64,000 bases of DNA from Octopus sinensis (lineage: Eukaryota). The notes under the pieces are model-generated. The model did not search any database and was not told where the DNA came from. It saw nothing but the letters and a program-made list of their open reading frames with translations. How positions within the stretch are numbered: position 1 is the first letter of the stretch; every line of letters begins with the position of its first letter. Where the stretch lies: assembly GCF_006345805.1 (NCBI RefSeq), contig NC_042997.1, forward strand, positions 188,976,001 to 189,040,000, in the 5' to 3' direction. The translations under genes were made by a program, and so were the position numbers. Shown here in pieces: positions 2 to 64,000 of the stretch.

Positions 2-2730
2 TTTAAACCGGAAAATCCTACCCACTCGACCCTCCATTTCATCACCACCAATGGGCCACCTGTATTCTCACGCCCCCGGCGCCTAGCGCCAGACCGGCTT
101 AAAACGGCCAGAGCCGAGTTTGAGCACATGCTTCAACTTGGCATTATACGCCCCTCCACCAGCCCATGGGCATCTCCCCTTCATTTGGCGCGAAGGGCGA
201 GTCTGATTTTCGCCCGGTTGGAGACTATCGACGCCTCAATGCCGTCACAATAGCCGATCGCTATCCGATTAGAAATCTCCGGGACTTTACAGCAAATCTC
301 CATGGTTGTACCATTTTTTCGAAGGTCGATCTGATACGCGCTTACCACCAAATACCGGTCAACCCAGCCGACGTTCCAAAAACTGCAATCACTACCCCGT
401 TTGGGTGTTTTGAGTTTTTGTACATGAGTTTCGGTTTGCGGAATGCTACTAGCACCTTCCAGCGTTTCATTGATGAGGTTGTCCGCGGTCTTGATTTTGT
501 GTTTGCCTATGTCGATGACATACTCATTGCGAGCGACACACGAGAAAATCATCTCCGGCACCTTTCTCAACTCTTCCAGCGTCTTCGCGCGTATAGCATA
601 CGCATAAACCCCGACAAGTGTGTTTTCGGACGCTCTTCCATAGATTTTCTAGGGCATCATATTGATTCGACTGGAATCAGCCCCCTCTCGTCAAAAGTCG
701 ATGCCATTCAACGCATCGCACCCCCACTTCCTTGCGCCAGCTCAGGCATTATAGGGATGGTCAATTTCTACCGACGCTTCATTCCCGGTTGTGCAGATAA
801 GCTGCTACCTCTCACCAGGCTGTTAAAGGACTCTCCTAGAAAGGACAGTCAAGTCACCCTCTCTGTTGAGGCAGTGACAGCCTTTGAGTCCATTAAGAAG
901 GAGCTGGCTTCTGTTTCTTTGCTTGCACATCCAGTTCCTGGTGCTTCTCTCTCTTTGACTGTGGACGCATCGGACACTGCCATTGGCGCTGTGTTACAAC
1001 ACACAGTGGATGACCATGTTCGACCTCTAGCCTTCTTTTCCCGTCAACTGCAACCAGCTGAACGACGATACAGCACCTTTGATCGTGAGCTCCTAGCGAT
1101 CTATCTATCGGTTCGTCATTTCCAGCATCAACTTGAAGGGCGAGATTTTGTGATCTATACGGATCACAAGCCCCTTACGTTTGCCCTGTTTTCAAAAACG
1201 GACAAACTCTCACCCCGTGCTTTTCGGCACCTGGATTTTATCTCTCAATTTACTAGCAACATTCGACACATACCTGGAAAAGAGAACGTTCCTGCTGACG
1301 CTCTCTCTCGCCTTCCAGTTTGCGCCCTTTCGTCTCCTGCTGCTATCGACTTAGCTGCCATATCGCAGAGAGCAGCCACCTTTGGCGTCGTTAGATTTAA
1401 TTTCTCCCAAGTTCTCCTGTTGCCAGTTTTCCTACCTTCCGCTTCCGTCAGCCGAAGGCACCATTCTTTGTGACACTTCAACTGGATCTCCCAGGCCACT
1501 GGTGCCTGAGACCCATCAACGCTCAGTGTTTGAAGCACTGCACTCCTTATCACATCCTGGCATCGCTGCCACCCTCAAACTAATCACTGCTCGGTTTTTC
1601 TGGCCGAATATGCGTCGCACAATTACTTGTTGGACACGCACCTGCTCCAAGTGTCAACGATCCAAGATTCAACGGCACGTTCGTGCCCCGCTTGGACAAT
1701 TCCCCCCACGGATGCCCGTTTTCGCCATGTCCACATCGATCTGGTTGGACCATGGCCTGTGAGTCGCGGGTTCTCTTATCTATTAACTTGTGTCGATCGT
1801 TTCTCCCGCTGGCCAGAAGCCATTCCGATAGCAGACATTTCTGCTGAGACTGTTGCGCGAGCTTTCGTTTCAAACTGGATTTCTCGCTTCGGAGTCCCGT
1901 CCCGATTGACAACTGATCGTGGACGACAGTTTGAGGCCTCGCTATTTCGCGAATTGTCGCGAATTTTGGGTATGCACCATATCCACACCACAAGCTACCA
2001 TCCAGCGTCTAATGGATTGGTTGAGCGGTTCCATAGACAGCTCAAGGCCGCTCTTCGTGCCTCTTCGGACCCACAGTCCTGGATCGAATTTCTGCCCATT
2101 GTGCTTCTCGGCTGTCGGACTGCTGTCAAGGCAGACCTGGGGTTTTCTGCTGCAGAGCTGCTGTATGGTACCACACTGGCATTGCCCGGTACGATGTTGG
2201 TGCCAGACACTTCCCCGCCCCATGATCCGGCGACCTATGTCACCAGACTGCGGGAATATTTTTCAAACCTTCCGCCCATGCTTCCCAGAAAGCAATCTCC
2301 ACCGTCCCATCTTCCACCGGATATGAACACCTGGTCGCATGTTTTTGTTCGGGACGATTCTGTGAAGGGCCCACTTGTTTCTCCCTATAAAGGACCTTTT
2401 CGTGTGCTTTCTCGCACACCAAAGGTTTTCACGATTGAGATAAATGGTCGTTCGGAGACCGTTTCCGTGGACCGTTTAAAAAAGGCACATTTTGAGACGT
2501 CTTCATCTTTTGATGACAACCTTGACACCACCCACCTATGCACCTTTAACAACACTTTCACCTGCACAAACGCCTTCACCTGCACAAACGCCTTCACCTG
2601 CACAATCACTTCACCGGCTCCTACAACACCACCCTCGCCGTCAACGGGTGCCCCGAGCACACCGTATGTTACAAAATCGGGCAGAACAGTGCATTGGCCC
2701 AAGAAACTTTCAAAAACAATTTACATTTAA
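2..2730 (+). pseudogene. pol: Gypsy pol polyprotein (RT, RNase H, integrase) split over several frames by small indels
   Basis: Frame 2 gives ...LGIIRPSTSPWASPLHL. ORF 166-1473 has DYRRLN, YVDD, DAS and YTDHKPL. ORF 1382-1762 has the HHCC zinc finger (HSLSHPG...CSKC). ORF 1627-2730 has the rve core ([23 protein letters not shown]), a PYKGPF motif and terminal TKSGR. Frameshifts near 190, 730-750, 1370 and 1705. Confidence 0.95.
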
Positions 2731-42833: not shown

Positions 42834-44294
42834 AGAATGAGATTGACCGGTTTGATATCAAGTTATCATAAATGTTTGTGCATAACTGTTGCATTTGTGG
42901 AGTGCAAGTCTGATTACGAATGTATTTTATTGAAAAAAAAAAGAAAAAAATTTCACATTTTTTTTGGGAATGGTTTTAAAAAAAAAATTTGATAGGTGTA
43001 GGTGTGGCTGTGTGGTAAGTTGCTTGCTAACCAACCACATGGTTCCAGGTTCAGTCCCAGTGCTCTGCACCTTGGGCAAGTGTCTTCTACTATAGCCTCG
43101 GGTCGACCAAAGCCTTGTGAGTGGATTTGGTAGACGGCAACTGAAAGAAGCCCGTCGTATATATATGTGTGTTTGTGTGTCTGTGTTTGTCCCCCACCAT
43201 CGCTTGACAACCGATGTTGGTGTGTTCACGTCCCTGTAACTTAGTGGTTTGGCAAAACTGCAGTCAAATGACTGAAACAAATAAAAGAGAGAAAAAGAAT
43301 ATCAATTTTGGATGTGTACTTACCAGGCAAGTGATTTGATCTGATTGTGTATTGAAACTAAAACAATTACAGTGTGGAAGATACATATTAGCCATACAAA
43401 AACACCCAAAGTCTTTCAGCTTCACTTAAATATATATCAGTAATAACTTTTTGATGCCAAATAATAAATGTAAATAGTCATTTTAATGTTATTGATATAA
43501 GTGTTTTAACTACTATGAAACCATCTCTCAGTTAAAATTCGTGGTGAGAGCCTCCAATGAATTTTAACTGAGAGATGAACATTTATTCTATCATAAGTTC
43601 TTATCTCAGCCTACCATTATAACATCTCATTATGAGTGAAGTTTACTGAGTGAGGTTTCTCAGCAAGTAATTAGCGGTCTGAACTCTTAGTGAGAAAGGA
43701 GGCTGTTCCATCAGCTGTACGTGATCATCTTAAATCCACTCGACCTCTTCTTTGTCAACTATCTGTCTCTTTTGTTTGATTATCTGATTACAAGTATCAT
43801 CAGATGTTTTTCATCTACATCTCATTGAGGACATCTATATCAGCTTTTCTCTCTTTAAAGTTCTCTCTCTCTCGGTAACATTGATTCCACAAATCTTTCC
43901 AGTTGAAAAAAATTTGATTAACAAATTTTATCTATGTAATTATTGATGTAGACAAGTTAAGGAAATTTCTTTCTGTCATCACTTTTCTTGTAATGTATTA
44001 GTGGTAATTTAAGACTAAGTTGGCTTAAAAGCTTGGATTTTCCATTAAATTTTTTTCTGTATCATCAACTAGGAAATTGAAGCATAAATTCAAATGTGTT
44101 AAAATTTTCGATTTTTTTCCATTTCTAGTATTTAGTTTAAGTTGCAATTAGTTAAAAAAAAACTTTTAAACGAATCCATTAAAAATATTTTAATTTAATT
44201 AGTCACATTTAATTTTATGAAGTGAATGCTTGAAAGTATAAAGATAAAATTTGAAGGTTAAAATATTTTTAATTCTCTTCATATCTTTTTCAGA

Positions 44295-47200
44295 ATGTCT
44301 CAGCCAGTAGCACCTTGGAATCCAGATAATTACGGGAACCAGTCTGGCAGTGTTGGACCAGTGACATTTTATAATCCTGCTGAATTTCAAAATAATGTTC
44401 CAAGCAACCAGTTTGCTGGTACTTCATTCCAACCATTGTCTGAAGGTAATACAGTGTCTACTATTACAGACCAACCAATAACTACTGCCGAATGTAATAT
44501 TAGTAATCAACAAGCTCAGTTACAAACTGTAGCTCCTACAATATTTCAACCATCTAATTGTAACAATGTTCAGCCTGCTAACCAGGTGCCGCCTGATAAA
44601 GATTCTTTGAACCAGCTAAATGCATCTACAGATAGCAATAATACTGTTAATGGCACGTGGGACCCAAACCCTGCATGGGGAGACCATCCGAGTTCTTTCT
44701 TTGGTAACCAGTTCACTGGAATGGGGCAGTATCATGAACACAATGTTAGTTCCGTAAACAGTGTTGGAAATGATTCCCATGGAAATAATATTTCTGGTCA
44801 TGAACAAATTTCAACAGGTACAATTCAGTATTTTGACCAAAATCAGAACTTACCAGCTGGAATGAATCAGGATTTATCAGGTGGACAAATGTGGCCAAAT
44901 ATACTATCACCAAACACACAACAGTGGCCTAGTGATACTTCTAATAATGTTCTTCCGCAGACCTATTTTTCATCAGATTCTAGTAATTCACAACCAACTA
45001 TCCAGGCTAACTATTCTGCATATCAGAGCCCTTCACCCATGTTGTTATCTTCACCTGTTCAAGACCCCAGTTCATCTCTTCAAACTCCAGGACAAAAAAT
45101 AATAACTACAACAGAATCAAGATATTTTTCTCAAGCACCTGATAATAACCAAGCTGTTCATTCTCAGAATAGCTGGCCTCAAGTTTCTAATATAGCTGTT
45201 AGTAAACCTCTAGAAGCATGTGAGCAGCAAACAACTGCTGCTGCATTTTTTAATCAGAGTAATACTGGTTTAGATAACTCTCTGTGGGAGCCCACAAAAA
45301 ACTTGTCAAATTCTAATCCACCAGTTGGGATTTTTCAACCACAAAATTATCCAGTTTTAGTGAAAAATGACTCCTATCCAGAACCGAATTCTGTACCTGT
45401 TACAGCAACTCCCTCAAACCAGACAGTTGCCGATAATTTAAGTACATCAGTTGCACAAGCTTTTTCTGTTGGTAACAACTCACAGTCTATTGGGAACAGT
45501 ATACAAAATAGTGCTGCTAGTGTTGCAGAAGTTAGTAATAAATTTAATGAAATTTCACTAAACGCATTGCCTGAGGAATCTGTTCCAACATCAACTGAGG
45601 CTGCTAGTTTTGTTCAACAAAACCAGCAGCAACATTTGCCTTTGGATTCCATAACGAATGTCAACTTGCATGATTCATTCATCACCGAAAACAAAAGCTC
45701 AAACTCAAATGACTGCAGTCAGTACATGAAACATGGCTTACCACAGTCCACAGAGACTCCTGACCAGGAGTTCATTAATAATTGTAAAGAACATGCTAAT
45801 ACTTCTAGTCAGGTTCATCCAATTACAAATGCAATTGTACTTGATAGCTTTAATACAGAGAATTCAAATTTTCAAAATGAACATTTTTCTTTTCCTCAGC
45901 TTGCACCGTCCTCTACAATTAAGGAGACTTCAAATCAAGATGTGATACCAAAACCAGCTGAACAGCATCATAATTATGACCCCCAGAATGAAATAGTGGC
46001 AGCCCCAACTCCGCCTTTGGAGGATTTGGATCAGCTCAAAGAAAGTATGAAACAGATTCCTAATACTTCCAATATTAATAATACATTTGAATCAGTTGCT
46101 AACTCTAAGAAAGAAATGGCATCACAATTTGGCTCAGAGCAAACTGCATCTTTGAGAAAGGACCATATGCTAAACGTTTTTGCAAGTGAAATTCAGCCAA
46201 GAGAATCTAGCCCATTCCAGCCACCTCCTCCAAGGCAAAATTCTGTAGAAGGAAATCGTCCACAATCCATCTCCAGAGGAAGTTCTCAAGAGAGTAGTCG
46301 AAGTTTGCGAGGCAGTGTTCATGGAGAACCCAGTTCTAAAGGAAACCAGAGCCTTAGAGGAAGTGCAACTAAAAGTGATCCATCTCTTCAAGACTGTTGG
46401 TCAAATTCTGGTGTTCAGTCATTTTTACGGCAAGGATCACAGGAGAGCATTCGATCTGTAGAATCCAATGCATCACGACCCTCTATGGAACAGATTGAAG
46501 AACGTGCTAAAGACACAAAGGGTCTTATGCCACCACCAAAAAATGTAAACCGACATGATCAAACCTCTGCAGCAATCAGGGCCAATGCAGTTGATGCAGC
46601 TCGTTTACAAGACTGCATGTCACCTATGACCACATTATGGGATAATCCCCAGATATCATCAAGTGGCATAATGCTTGTGCCCAGCATACCTGTGGTCAGT
46701 TCTGAAAGTTCTACAGCTTTTTCTCTTGTGGCTAAAGGATCTAGTACTAGTTCAGAAAACAAAAATATCACTGCAGAAACTTCTATTGCAAGTAAGCGCT
46801 CTTTGGATGTCACTAATGATACAACTAACAACAGCAGTGACAAATTGGACAGTTCCCAACCTTTGACATCAACTCCAAATTCTTCAAAAACTGCTACTAG
46901 TAATCATGATAGTTCTCCAATAAAACCAGAGTTTAAAAGCCCCCCGCAACAATATGAAGAAGGCCATACAAAAAAAGACTTTCCTGGATCTCGTGACCCT
47001 CACAGTTCTTGGAGTGTTCAGGATGCAAGATTTCCACAGAACTCACAAGATCGTCATGATTTCAGAGGTTCTCGTGACTCTTTGGATATCCGGGATTCAA
47101 AAGGTTATCGAGATCATGACTTCCATGGTTCTAGAGAATCTTTAGATATGCGAGATTCTAGACATTCTCGTGAGTACCGAGATCGCGAGCCAGTGGATTT

Positions 47201-47409
47201 TAGAGGTTCAAAAGCAAGAGACAGGGATTACCGTCATCCTCGAGATTATGATTATGATTATCGAATGCGTTATCACAAGAATCCACGATATGACGCTTAC
47301 TATGATCGACCTGTGAGTCGACCTGAATTTGAACGTTATGGAGAATACAACAATTACTACCGTGATGAAGAACATCATGAATCATATGAAAGGCCACGTT
47401 CTAGGCAGG
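44295..47409 (+). CDS. SEC16: Giant first coding exon of a Sec16-like COPII/ER-exit-site scaffold gene (N-terminal disordered region plus Arg-rich region)
   Basis: 1039-codon S/N/Q/P-rich ORF; acceptor TCTTTTTCAG|A-ATG at 44293/44294; donor CAG G|GTTAGT at 47409/47410 (phase 1). SPMTTLWDNP...IMLVPSIP resembles the recalled SEC16A TTLW...VLLAPAAP motif, and the R/D/Y-rich end RPRSRQG resembles the region preceding the central conserved domain, which is not in the window. Confidence 0.78.
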
Positions 47410-47444
47410 GTTAGTATTGACATTTTTACCCTTTTTTTAATATA

Positions 47445-61985: not shown

Positions 61986-62031
<46 letters not shown>

Positions 62032-62202
62032 CGTAGGAGTGGCTGTGTGGTAAGTAGCTTGCTTATGAACCACATGGTTCCGGGTTCAGTCCCACTGCGT
62101 GGCACCTTGGGCAAGTGTCTTCTACTATAGCCTCGGGCCGACCAAAGCCTTGTGAGTGGATTTGGTAGACGGAAACTGAAAGAAGCCTGTCGTATATATG
62201 TG

Positions 62203-62243
<41 letters not shown>

Positions 62244-62517
62244 TATATGTGTGTGTGTGTGTTTGTGTGTCTGTGTTTGTCCCCCCCCTCCCAGCATCGC
62301 TTGACAACCGATGCTGGTGTGTTTACACCCCCGTAACTTAGCGGTTCGGCAAAAGAGACTGATAGAATAAGTCCTGGGGGTCGATTTGCTCGACAAAAGG
62401 CGGTGCTCCAGCATGGCGACAGTCAAATGACTGAAACAAGTAGAAGAGTAAAAGAGAAAGAGTATATATATATATCATCACCATCATCGTTTAATGTCTG
62501 CTCTCCATGCTAGCATG

Positions 62518-62562
<45 letters not shown>

Positions 62563-62722
62563 TATTGGCAGGGCTGGCCTGCTAGGTAGCCGGCCAGAAT
62601 GCTAGAAATAGATCATCAACGATCAAACTACAAGGGAAATTCTCTAGAGGAAGAATTCAGCGAACACCAGAACCAAATTTGGCGGGCAGGACATATGAAA
62701 AATTAAATAAAAAAAAGACTTA

Positions 62723-62798
62723 AATGCATACCTCGGTTTCGGTCTTAACAAAAGAATTACTTGCATAATTCAAGTGTCCGTGACTTCTTCAGTACATT
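62723..62798 (-). ncRNA. Type I hammerhead ribozyme, unit 1
   Basis: Minus strand AATGTA-CTGAAGA-AGTC[...]GACC-GAAA-CCGAGG-TA-TGCATT: 6-bp stem I, intact CUGANGA/GAAA/UH core. Confidence 0.82.
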
Positions 62799-63268
62799 CG
62801 GTCCTCGAGATGCAAACCGCAAGACTAACCCCAGCTCTCTGTGTCAAGACAGACACGTGCTTAGTCTTACTGATTACATCGGGAATAAAATTTCAAATGT
62901 CTTGGTTCCGGCGCGCTAAGAGACTCCTGAAGCGAAGGGCTGCAGTGAATAATTCACTGCGGGTAAAGCTTACTACTAGGGAACGTATTTATTTAAATAT
63001 TTAAAAATTGAGGGAGATAAATTAATATTAATTTTAATATCAATTTAAAACCAGTAGTCCAGCATTCAAAAAATCTGAGGAGTCAGAGAAAATTCAAATA
63101 TATGTGTATATTGGCAGGGCTGGCCTGCTAGGTAGCCGGCCAGAATGCTAGAAATAGATCATCAACGATCAAACTACAAGGGAAATTCTCTAGAGGAAGA
63201 ATTCAGCGAACACCAGAACAAATTTGGCGGGCAGGACATATGAAAAATAAATAAAAAAAACAGACTTA

Positions 63269-63344
63269 AATGCATACCTCGGTTTCGGTCTTAACAAAAG
63301 AATTACTTGCATAATTCAAGTGTCCGTGACTTCTTCAGTACATT
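63269..63344 (-). ncRNA. Type I hammerhead ribozyme, unit 2
   Basis: Identical to unit 1, 546 bp away. Confidence 0.82.
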
Positions 63345-63807
63345 CGGTCCTCGAGATGCAAACCGCAAGACTAACCCCAGCTCCCTGTGTCAAGACAGAC
63401 ACGTGCTTAGTCTTACTGATTACATCGGGAATAAAATTTCAAATGTCTTGGTTCCGGCGCGCTAAGAGACTCCTGAAGCGAAGGGCTGCAGTGAATAATT
63501 CACTGCGGGTAAGCTTACTACTAGGGAACGTATTTATTTAAATATTAAAAATTGAGGGAGATAAATTAATATTAATTTTAATATCAATTTAAAACCAGTA
63601 GTCCAGCATTCAAAAAATCTGAGGAGTCAGAGAAAATTCAAATATGTGTATATTGCAGGGCTGGCCTGCTAGGTAGCGGCCAGAATGCTAGAAATAGATC
63701 ATCAACGATCAAACTACAAGGGAAATTCTCTAGAGGAAGAATTCAGCGAACACCAGAACCAAATTTGGCGGGCAGGACATATGAAAAATTAATAAAAAAC
63801 AGACTTA

Positions 63808-63883
63808 AATGCATACCTCGGTTTCGGTCTTAACAAAAGAATTACTTGCATAATTCAAGTGTCCGTGACTTCTTCAGTACATT
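63808..63883 (-). ncRNA. Type I hammerhead ribozyme, unit 3
   Basis: Identical to unit 1, 539 bp from unit 2. Confidence 0.82.
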
Positions 63884-64000
63884 CGGTCCTTGAGATGCAA
63901 ACCGCAAGACTAACCCCAGCTCTCTGTGTCAAGACAGACACGTGCTTAGTCTTACTGATTACATCGGGAATAAAATTTCAAATGTCTTGGTTCCGGCACA

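What the first reader, a model, noticed from the sequence alone, without database searches (positions are those of the whole stretch)
62723..62798. Unusual hammerhead architecture: GA-centred quasi-palindromic stem III and long GNRA-capped stem II
Seen: stem III is only CCGAGG, too short to close a stable hairpin. Two copies could pair intermolecularly (C-G, C-G, tandem G.A/A.G, G-C, G-C). Stem II begins with an A.C apposition, then GTC/GAC, and extends to a GAATTAT-GCAA-GTAATTC hairpin with a GNRA tetraloop. Known: minimal Penelope-type and newt hammerheads cleave as double hammerheads through palindromic stem III. Inferred: activity may need two adjacent units, which would give the tandem arrangement a functional role, and the GCAA arm may form a tertiary contact.
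Basis: partly seen in the sequence, partly recalled or inferred. Interest (0 to 1): 0.75.

Follow-up and report, generated by a model that had tools for sequence, protein, structure and literature searches.

The report
Paired hammerhead in Penelope-type retrozyme
This is a predicted self-cutting RNA (hammerhead) carried once in each 546-base unit of a protein-free jumping repeat with hundreds of genomic copies; its short third arm likely pairs with the next unit's arm through two G·A pairs, and its long second arm likely docks through an inner loop rather than its GCAA tip, so it is a modest variation on a known kind of element.

Summary
The motif is real and lies on the minus strand: a type I hammerhead (cut predicted at 62729|62728), one per 546-bp unit of a 4.75-unit array. 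The family is dispersed (443 exact motif matches). It inserts in (TA)n with Penelope-type paired ends (44 of 50 two-armed insertions end once at each of two fixed sites), so it is a non-LTR retrozyme. The scan has reported this element kind before on other DNA of this genome. CCGAGG is the usual short self-complementary helix III. Sister families use CAAUUG, CUCGAG or covarying 8-mers, and the tandem-G·A duplex is computed as stable as CAAUUG (-6.6 vs -6.4 kcal/mol). A double hammerhead is favoured over two monomers by about 5 kcal/mol, but cleavage is untested and related invertebrate ribozymes cut as monomers. A·C sits at 10.1-11.1 (G-C in 6 of 112 copies). The GCAA contact is not supported: sister families change that loop but keep U1.7-A-A and adenines 3' of the first internal loop of helix II. 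That is the canonical docking geometry, with precedent in the CChMVd(-) hammerhead. New member of a known kind.

The parts
62716..62803 (-). Type I hammerhead, copy 1, with helix I extension
   Evidence: Sequence; descriptor vs shuffles; covariation on 55 distinct copies
62786..62792 (-). Core C3-A9 (CUGAAGA; N7 is A or U among copies)
62782..62785 (-). 5' strand of basal helix II; A62785 at position 10.1 faces C62741
   Evidence: 10.1/11.1 is A.C in 101, G-C in 6, A-U in 4, other in 1 of 112 copies; U-A to C-G change at 62783/62743 in 13 of 55 rows
62779..62781 (-). 5' side (ACG) of internal loop 2
   Evidence: docking role inferred
62754..62771 (-). Distal 7-bp hairpin with GCAA loop (62764-62761; GUAA in subfamily B)
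   Evidence: no two-sided change in its 7 pairs
62745..62746 (-). 3' side (AA; AAA in subfamily B) of internal loop 2; A62745 is the predicted partner of U1.7
   Evidence: AA kept at this place in families C, D, E and in L080; contact inferred from PMC2632901
62730..62740 (-). GAAA plus helix III A-CCGAGG-U (CCGAGG = 62736-62731)
   Evidence: 107 of 112 copies CCGAGG, 2 CCUAGG, 3 other; energies
62728..62729 (-). Predicted cleavage site, after GUA
   Evidence: Hammerhead consensus (established knowledge); not observed in reads (contigs only)
62720..62722 (-). U1.7-A-A, 3' side of internal loop 1
   Evidence: UAA in 108 of 112 A/B, 11 of 11 C and 9 of 9 D copies, and in E and L080
62560..63105 (-). 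Repeat unit 1 (546 bp); its end at 62560 is the array's 3' end (site E1)
63106..63649 (-). Repeat unit 2 with hammerhead copy 2 (C3 at 63338)
63648..64000 (-). Repeat unit 3 (part) with hammerhead copy 3 (C3 at 63877); the array runs on to G000:C1:189041141, 4.75 units and 5 hammerheads in all, 5'-truncated
62520..62559 (.). (TA)n microsatellite at the 3' junction (insertion target)
   Evidence: 122 of 143 family 3' flanks TA-rich vs 8.7% background
62986..63001 (-). Second fixed 3' end of the family (site E2, unit position 105-125); internal in this array
   Evidence: 79 of 154 arms end here and 64 of 154 at E1
63058..63152 (-). Predicted 10-bp helix (63152-63143 with 63067-63058) enclosing site E1 across the unit junction; candidate signal for the reverse transcriptase
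   Evidence: Predicted; G-U to A-U change in subfamily B; role inferred

Best explanation
The motif is a type I hammerhead in each 546-bp unit of a dispersed, protein-free tandem repeat (a non-LTR retrozyme) that is likely mobilised by Penelope-like element enzymes and likely cuts best when two neighbouring units of one transcript pair their CCGAGG arms through tandem G·A pairs into a double hammerhead. Steps: (1) shown: intact core, covarying helices I and II, one copy per unit, Penelope-type insertion ends in (TA)n. (2) Inferred: read-through transcription of an array gives RNA with two or more ribozymes. (3) Inferred: helix III of units n and n+1 pair (A-U, C-G, C-G, G·A, A·G, G-C, G-C, U-A) with swapped helix I strands, all nested. 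(4) Inferred: the active fold is held by the canonical loop 1-loop 2 contact between U1.7 (62722) and the 3' adenine of the first internal loop of helix II (62745); the GCAA hairpin is a free arm that mainly stabilises helix II. (5) Inferred: cleavage after GUA releases 546-nt monomers that may be circularised, and in a lone monomer the ribozyme is largely switched off. (6) Inferred: a Penelope-type RT-endonuclease nicks (TA)n and starts reverse transcription at one of two internal sites about 120 nt apart.
For: Motif far above chance. Two-sided changes in the helix I extension (C-G to A-U, 20 of 55 rows), helix I (11 of 55) and basal helix II (13 of 55); 92% of cells paired vs 34-40% for slid controls. 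443 exact motif matches vs 1 control; 487 vs 0 for a second motif. 143 of 154 arms end at two fixed sites; 44 of 50 head-to-head insertions have one end of each kind and none has two of the same; 122 of 143 flanks are TA-rich. This matches the PLE 'tail' made by two RT start sites (PMC11167929). Sister families: CAAUUG in 11 of 11 (C); CUGAUCGG 5, CUAAUUAG 3, CUGAUUAG 1 of 9 (D), where the inner change keeps complementarity that only a dimer can use. Duplex energy -6.6 kcal/mol for CCGAGG vs -6.4 for CAAUUG and -4.7 for a CCAAGG control; double hammerhead -162.7 vs two monomers -157.5. 5'CGAG3'/3'GAGC5' is a frequent, stabilising tandem mismatch (PMC2724281). U1.7-A-A and the loop-2 adenines are kept while helix I sequence and the terminal loop turn over. 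The same contact through an internal loop of a GNRA-capped stem II is shown for CChMVd(-) (PMC2632901). An EN+ PLE with intact 781-aa RT/GIY-YIG ORFs and (TA)n flanks is in the genome.
Against: No cleavage, transcript end or circle was observed. The unconstrained fold of two units (-166.1; ensemble -180.2) beats the constrained double hammerhead (-162.7; ensemble -173.8), so the active fold is not the predicted ground state. Monomeric coral and mussel retrozymes self-cleave (kobs about 0.8 and 0.1 per min), and an axolotl ribozyme with 2 bp plus a tetraloop reaches 22% as a monomer. Eight of nine predicted Xenopus dimer retrozymes did not cleave. A Poseidon hammerhead needed protein and was dispensable for insertion in vitro. 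CCGAGG invariance between subfamilies only about 87% alike is weak evidence. The covariation reflects a few events on a tree, and two of the five shuffle measures were not exceeded. 5' ends are not enriched at the cut site (3 observed, 1.8 expected, P=0.27). Units within an arm are not more alike than the nearest unit elsewhere (median 1.0% vs 0.84%; lower in 9, higher in 14 of 26 arms), so a circular template is not supported here. No PLE with a terminal repeat homologous to this unit was found among 42 PLE loci compared.
Confidence: 0.6

Rival explanations
1. Same element, but the ribozyme cleaves adequately as a monomer (2-bp helix III with a CGAG tetraloop, helped by the loop-loop contact). 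Dimer pairing is optional, and the tandem layout only reflects how Penelope-type enzymes insert.
For: Coral and mussel monomers cleave efficiently. The monomer helix III penalty is only +1.8 kcal/mol, lower than for CAAUUG or CUCGAG. Helix I (6 bp plus extension) and the docking nucleotides are intact. Only 8 of 69 insertions in the less biased set hold two or more same-strand ribozymes.
Against: Self-complementarity is kept in all sister families seen and covaries at positions that cannot pair in a monomer. A·C at 10.1-11.1 should weaken the monomer (inference; U·U is described as the best tolerated mismatch there).
Confidence: 0.22
2. The ribozyme is slow or protein-dependent and cleavage is incidental to mobility. 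Uncleaved multimeric transcripts are the templates, and the fold is kept mainly as a binding or processing signal for the Penelope protein.
For: Poseidon hammerhead cleavage needs protein and is dispensable for insertion in vitro. Arms with up to 5 intact ribozymes show that reverse transcription crossed intact cut sites. No excess of 5' ends at the cut. No sign of copying from one circle. The active fold is not the ground state.
Against: Reading across the site is equally expected from a ligated circle. Core, NUH triplet and docking nucleotides are kept across diverged sister families, which suggests selection on catalysis at some step.
Confidence: 0.13
3. The GCAA tetraloop makes a tertiary contact that the ribozyme needs, for example with a receptor elsewhere in the unit or in the partner ribozyme.
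For: The loop changes from GCAA to GUAA between subfamilies, staying GNRA, and 3 copies have a C-G closing pair. The hairpin is the best-formed part of the domain (pair probability about 0.65).
Against: It lies about 20 nt from the core, beyond the canonical docking distance. Sister families have a 6-nt loop (C, E) or a non-GNRA loop (D). No two-sided change in its stem. A few copies read AUAA. GCAA to GUAA is a single event.
Confidence: 0.05

Closest known systems
Metazoan non-LTR retrozymes (coral, mussel, axolotl: PMC7229834; vertebrate survey: bioRxiv 10.64898/2026.07.22.740005)
   Same: Non-coding tandem units with one type I hammerhead each, dispersed as monomers to multimers, low GC; short helix III (2 bp plus tetraloop, as in axolotl HHR_Amex2); weak base of helix II (U·U in Amex2, A·C here).
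   Different: Unit 546 bp (170-400 nt in PMC7229834, but within the 51-972 bp of the 2026 survey); 45-nt stem II with two internal loops; helix III self-pairs through tandem G·A; RNA and circles not shown here.
Penelope-like elements and their pLTR hammerheads (PMC4209133; Craig et al. 10.1101/2021.04.23.441226; PMC11167929)
   Same: Partial tandems, inverted 5'-truncated arm, optional tail on one end, AT-rich or (TA)n target, palindromic helix III, an extra A after A9.
   Different: No ORF; tail about 120 nt rather than 30-40; ribozyme is canonical-sized with docking nucleotides rather than minimal; no homologous autonomous partner found.
Chrysanthemum chlorotic mottle viroid (-) hammerhead (PMC2632901)
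   Same: Stem II is a hairpin capped by a GNRA tetraloop, and the tertiary contact with loop 1 U1 is made by the 3' A of an internal loop.
   Different: A viroid ribozyme; PMC6466107 lists CChMVd among the efficient single-hammerhead catalysts. Here the ribozyme is genomic, type I, with a short helix III, and the contact is only inferred.
Newt and ASBVd(+) double hammerheads (as described in PMC6155905, PMC6466107)
   Same: Unstable helix III of two base pairs or fewer, extended by pairing of two tandem copies.
   Different: Those were shown to cleave as dimers; this one is untested.

Membership tests
Type I hammerhead ribozyme | Core CUGANGA, GAAA and NUH around three helices, helix I open | tested here: met
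   core columns invariant in 55 of 55 distinct copies, though these were picked by a core pattern; nearly invariant in 102 blast-picked copies
Type I hammerhead ribozyme | Helices supported by covariation | tested here: met
   Two-sided changes in helix I, its extension and basal helix II; none in the middle helix, distal hairpin or helix III
Type I hammerhead ribozyme | G10.1-C11.1 pair | tested here: not met
   A·C in 101 of 112 copies, G-C in 6; mismatches at this pair occur in natural hammerheads, so this does not exclude membership
Type I hammerhead ribozyme | Loop 1 U / loop 2 3' A tertiary motif | tested here: inconclusive
   Nucleotides present at canonical spacing and conserved across sister families; the contact itself was not tested
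Type I hammerhead ribozyme | Self-cleavage | not testable with these tools
   Only assembled contigs were available
Double hammerhead | Short, self-complementary helix III in tandem copies | tested here: met
   5 of 5 ribozymes of this array read CCGAGG
Double hammerhead | Dimer cleaves faster than monomer | not testable with these tools
   Energy model favours the dimer by about 5 kcal/mol; needs kinetics
Non-LTR retrozyme | Tandem non-coding units, each with a type I hammerhead, dispersed in the genome | tested here: met
   longest ATG ORF inside the array 71 aa
Non-LTR retrozyme | Linear and circular monomer RNA | not testable with these tools
   No run on record as RNA; contigs cannot show ends or circles; genomic proxy inconclusive
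Non-autonomous Penelope-like element | Inverted 5'-truncated arm with a tail on one end only (two RT start sites) | tested here: met
   44 of 50 two-armed insertions; the other 6 have one end at neither site
Non-autonomous Penelope-like element | AT-rich or microsatellite target | tested here: met
   122 of 143 flanks vs 8.7% background
Non-autonomous Penelope-like element | Homology to the pLTR of an autonomous PLE | tested here: inconclusive
   No match to PLE termini in 42 loci drawn from the best 147 of 5029 GIY-YIG candidates; most PLE families were not examined

The most novel reading that the evidence does not exclude
This genome holds a clade of retrozyme hammerheads that keep the canonical loop-loop docking through an internal loop while carrying a free 30-40-nt arm on helix II. 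This family has replaced the Watson-Crick palindrome by a tandem G·A junction of equal strength that works as a tuned dimer switch: on in tandem transcripts, off in lone copies and circles. The sister families (CAAUUG, CUCGAG, covarying 8-mers, CCGAGG, one natural CCUAGG locus) would then be a natural allelic series for testing why animal hammerheads dimerise.
Probability: 0.3. Interest if true: 0.55.

Novelty: new member of a known kind. Interest (0 to 1): 0.36.

Why it matters
Whether animal genomic hammerheads must pair up to cut, and whether cutting matters for their spread by Penelope enzymes, is still open. This young family gives a clean test set: an intact five-ribozyme array, two subfamilies with natural compensatory changes, natural G-C and CCUAGG variants, and sister families with different palindromes. 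It also shows that hammerheads with a long helix II escape Rfam. None of this changes the class of the element.

Tried and rejected
Rfam: no hammerhead hit. RNA evidence: no RNA holder listed; 14 holders are only guessed to be RNA, and all are contigs. Eight of 24 listed runs were laid; they show pieces of the unit, some crossing the cut site, and a unit-to-unit joint that genomic tandems also give, so they say nothing on cleavage, strand or circles. Looking for shorter-armed hammerheads with the same helix III gave 4 matches vs 5 control. Autonomous partner: none of 20 subfamily-B loci plus 20 further loci had the unit joined to an RT ORF; 6 nearby ORFs had no Pfam hit; PLE termini were not homologous; the hammerhead in L080 belongs to a separate insertion, not to the neighbouring PLE fragment. 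5' ends at the cut site: no sharp excess; a broad excess at unit positions 360-400 (16 vs 7.0) and a gap at 320-359 (0 vs 6.0) come from windows chosen after seeing the data and fit RT stalling at the folded domain as well. Rolling-circle test: not supported, and weak because mutation after insertion blurs it. The alternative register (extra A62785 bulged, G62784-C62741, bulged C) was considered; A-to-G copies give a perfect 4-bp helix only in the A·C register, so that register is preferred. Lünse et al. (Penelope hammerhead dimers) is not held; I saw only its title in a reference list. The supplement of PMC7229834 could not be read and one of PMC4209133's files was not searched; they may show similar helix III or helix II variants.

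Full report
Observation. The features lie on the minus strand: helix I 5' strand 62798-62793, core CUGAAGA 62792-62786, a 45-nt stem II 62785-62741, GAAA 62740-62737, CCGAGG 62736-62731, U62730, A62729, then the 3' strand of helix I 62728-62723. My type I descriptor matches three times in the window, once per repeat unit, against 0.005 per shuffled window. Rfam misses it. Folded alone, the 91-nt region is not unusually stable (z -0.64); the whole unit is (z -3.9).

Context. The ribozyme sits in a 546-bp unit. The array has 4.75 units and five ribozymes (G000:C1:189038560-189041141), is 5'-truncated and ends in (TA)n at window 62560. The longest ATG ORF inside it is 71 aa. The unit is dispersed: 156 matches from the 40 scored of 1308 candidates, 443 exact matches to a ribozyme motif with 1 control match, and 487 vs 0 for a second motif. 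Fetched copies fall into a young subfamily A (about 93-100% like the window) and a subfamily B (about 87%). That the host is an octopus is an inference from genome size and from earlier notes; no call names it.

How it moves. I mapped 101 insertions (154 arms). They came from the top 30 loci and the first listed places, so they are not a random sample. 143 of 154 arms end at one of two sites: unit position 540-546 (64) or 105-125 (79). Of 50 head-to-head two-armed insertions, 44 have one end of each kind, 6 have one end at neither site and none has two of the same. 122 of 143 flanks are TA-rich against 8.7% of background. This is the Penelope 'tail' pattern, which arises from two internal RT start sites (PMC11167929, parts 1-2 of 4 read; Craig et al., passages); here the tail is about 120 nt. 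EN+ Penelope-like elements with intact 781-aa RT/GIY-YIG ORFs and (TA)n flanks exist in the genome (the clade label Neptune-like is my reading of a cysteine linker). Their termini did not match the unit, so the helper is not identified. The element fits the non-LTR retrozymes (PMC7229834, passages and first third of results; bioRxiv 10.64898/2026.07.22.740005, parts 1-3 of 5). The scan has noted this kind of element repeatedly in this genome; a sequence look-up for this ribozyme returned nothing.

Helix III. A helix III of 1-2 bp with a small palindromic loop is the rule for metazoan type I hammerheads (PMC4209133, parts 1-2 of 4). Here 107 of 112 copies read CCGAGG, 2 read the perfect palindrome CCUAGG (both arms of one locus) and 3 differ otherwise; 95 of the 100 places listed read CCGAGG. 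Sister non-coding families were found through a weak match in L117 (E 5e-5) and searched. They use CAAUUG (family C, 11 of 11; also family E) or 8-mers (family D: CUGAUCGG 5, CUAAUUAG 3, CUGAUUAG 1); other motifs in PLE-neighbouring loci use CUCGAG, CAUAUG or CAUG. In D the inner positions change while staying complementary, which matters only if two copies pair. The computed self-duplex of A-CCGAGG-U is -6.6 kcal/mol, like CAAUUG (-6.4) and better than a CCAAGG control (-4.7), though one other control of mine, CCAGGG, scores the same -6.6 through G-U pairs. 5'CGAG3'/3'GAGC5' is the third most frequent tandem mismatch in an RNA structure database and contributes -0.7 to -1.7 kcal/mol (PMC2724281, passages). 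In a two-unit transcript the constrained double hammerhead (-162.7) beats two monomers (-157.5) but not the free fold (-166.1). In a hypothetical circular monomer helix I is formed with probability about 0.03. The dimer is therefore plausible and would be intramolecular. Against a strict need: coral and mussel monomers cleave, an axolotl ribozyme with 2 bp plus a tetraloop cleaves 22% alone, and 8 of 9 predicted Xenopus dimers did not cleave at all. Only 8 of 69 insertions in the less biased set hold two or more same-strand ribozymes, so on the dimer model most copies would be silent.

Helix II. The A·C apposition is position 10.1-11.1: 6 of 112 copies have G-C there, giving a perfect 4-bp helix, and the neighbouring U-A pair is C-G in 13 of 55 distinct rows. 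Families C and D have U·U at this place, a natural mismatch already reported (PMC3088659, passages; PMC7229834). After these four positions comes an internal loop (ACG/AA), a 4-bp helix, a 3x3 pyrimidine loop and the GCAA hairpin. Helix I is 6 bp, then a CG/UAA loop, then an extension with a C-G to A-U change in 20 of 55 rows. That is the canonical 6+4 geometry, in which loop 1 U pairs with the 3' A of loop 2 (PMC2632901, passages; PMC11875169, passages). U1.7-A-A is kept in 108 of 112 A/B, 11 of 11 C and 9 of 9 D copies, and in E and L080, although helix I sequence has turned over completely. An AA is kept 3' of the first internal loop. The terminal loop differs: GCAA or GUAA here, a 6-nt loop in C and E, non-GNRA in D. 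CChMVd(-) has the same plan, a GNRA-capped stem II docking through its internal loop. I therefore place the tertiary contact at 62745/62722, not at GCAA; this is inferred. The covariation counts reflect few events on a tree, the rows were picked by an intact-core pattern, two of five shuffle measures were not exceeded, and the GCAA stem shows no two-sided change.

Tests that did not support the fuller model. 5' ends are not enriched at the cut (3 observed vs 1.8 expected, P=0.27). Units within an arm are no closer to each other than to the nearest unit elsewhere (median 1.0% vs 0.84%; 14 shared vs 69 single private variants), so copying round one RNA circle, proposed in earlier notes for similar elements, is not supported for this family, though the test is weak. 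Public runs offered only contigs.

What is in print. Searches for hammerhead ribozyme plus octopus and retrozyme plus cephalopod listed no description of this family. A search on double hammerhead, tandem G, stem III and mismatch found no paper. The exact helix III string was not found in the supplements of PMC3088659 or the searchable file of PMC4209133. Lünse et al. and the supplement of PMC7229834 could not be seen and may bear on novelty. Reviews read as passages only: PMC6765202, PMC6155905, PMC6466107, PMC2837043.

Verdict. Real motif, known class. Each 'unusual' trait has a precedent or is shared with sister families; what is particular is the tandem G·A version of the dimer junction combined with internal-loop docking. 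New member of a known kind, interest 0.36.

Noticed in passing
L117:230-650 and L117:6920-7610; L109:6270-7370; L080:2300-2900; L119-L146: At least four further non-coding hammerhead families related in plan to this one (long stem II, U1.7-A-A, palindromic helix III, (TA)n flanks, inverted arms); two gave 1460 and 2550 first-look candidates.
   Followed up: partly
L107:2532-4874, L108-L111, L113, L118: Young EN+ Penelope-like family with intact 781-aa RT/GIY-YIG ORFs, an upstream ORF and (TA)n flanks; several copies carry a U3-A8 variant hammerhead with a CAUG helix III.
   Followed up: partly
L059 (G000:C2:55776532-55777580): Both arms of one insertion carry the perfect palindrome CCUAGG in helix III, a natural variant for testing.
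   Followed up: partly
window 62823-62867 (minus), unit positions 239-283: A hairpin upstream of the ribozyme has a G-C to A-U compensatory change between subfamilies, so structure is conserved outside the ribozyme too.
   Followed up: no
G000 loci L147, L153, L051, L169, L172: In several two-armed insertions both arms stop at the same 5' position (398/398, 482/482, 56/56, 59/59, 381/381), which suggests fold-back or template switching.
   Followed up: no
family-wide, unit positions 320-400: 5' truncation points are in excess at 360-400 and absent at 320-359 (post hoc windows), possibly RT stalling at the ribozyme fold.
   Followed up: partly
window 124-2730: LTR-retrotransposon pol fragments (RT, RNase H, integrase core) in two open frames.
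   Followed up: partly
window 44262-47414: A 1050-codon open frame with no Pfam match; possibly a large exon.
   Followed up: partly
window 62030-62460: A SINE-like repeat next to the array (class judged by eye); its 3' part is matched by hundreds of contigs at very high summed depth in the four runs.
   Followed up: no
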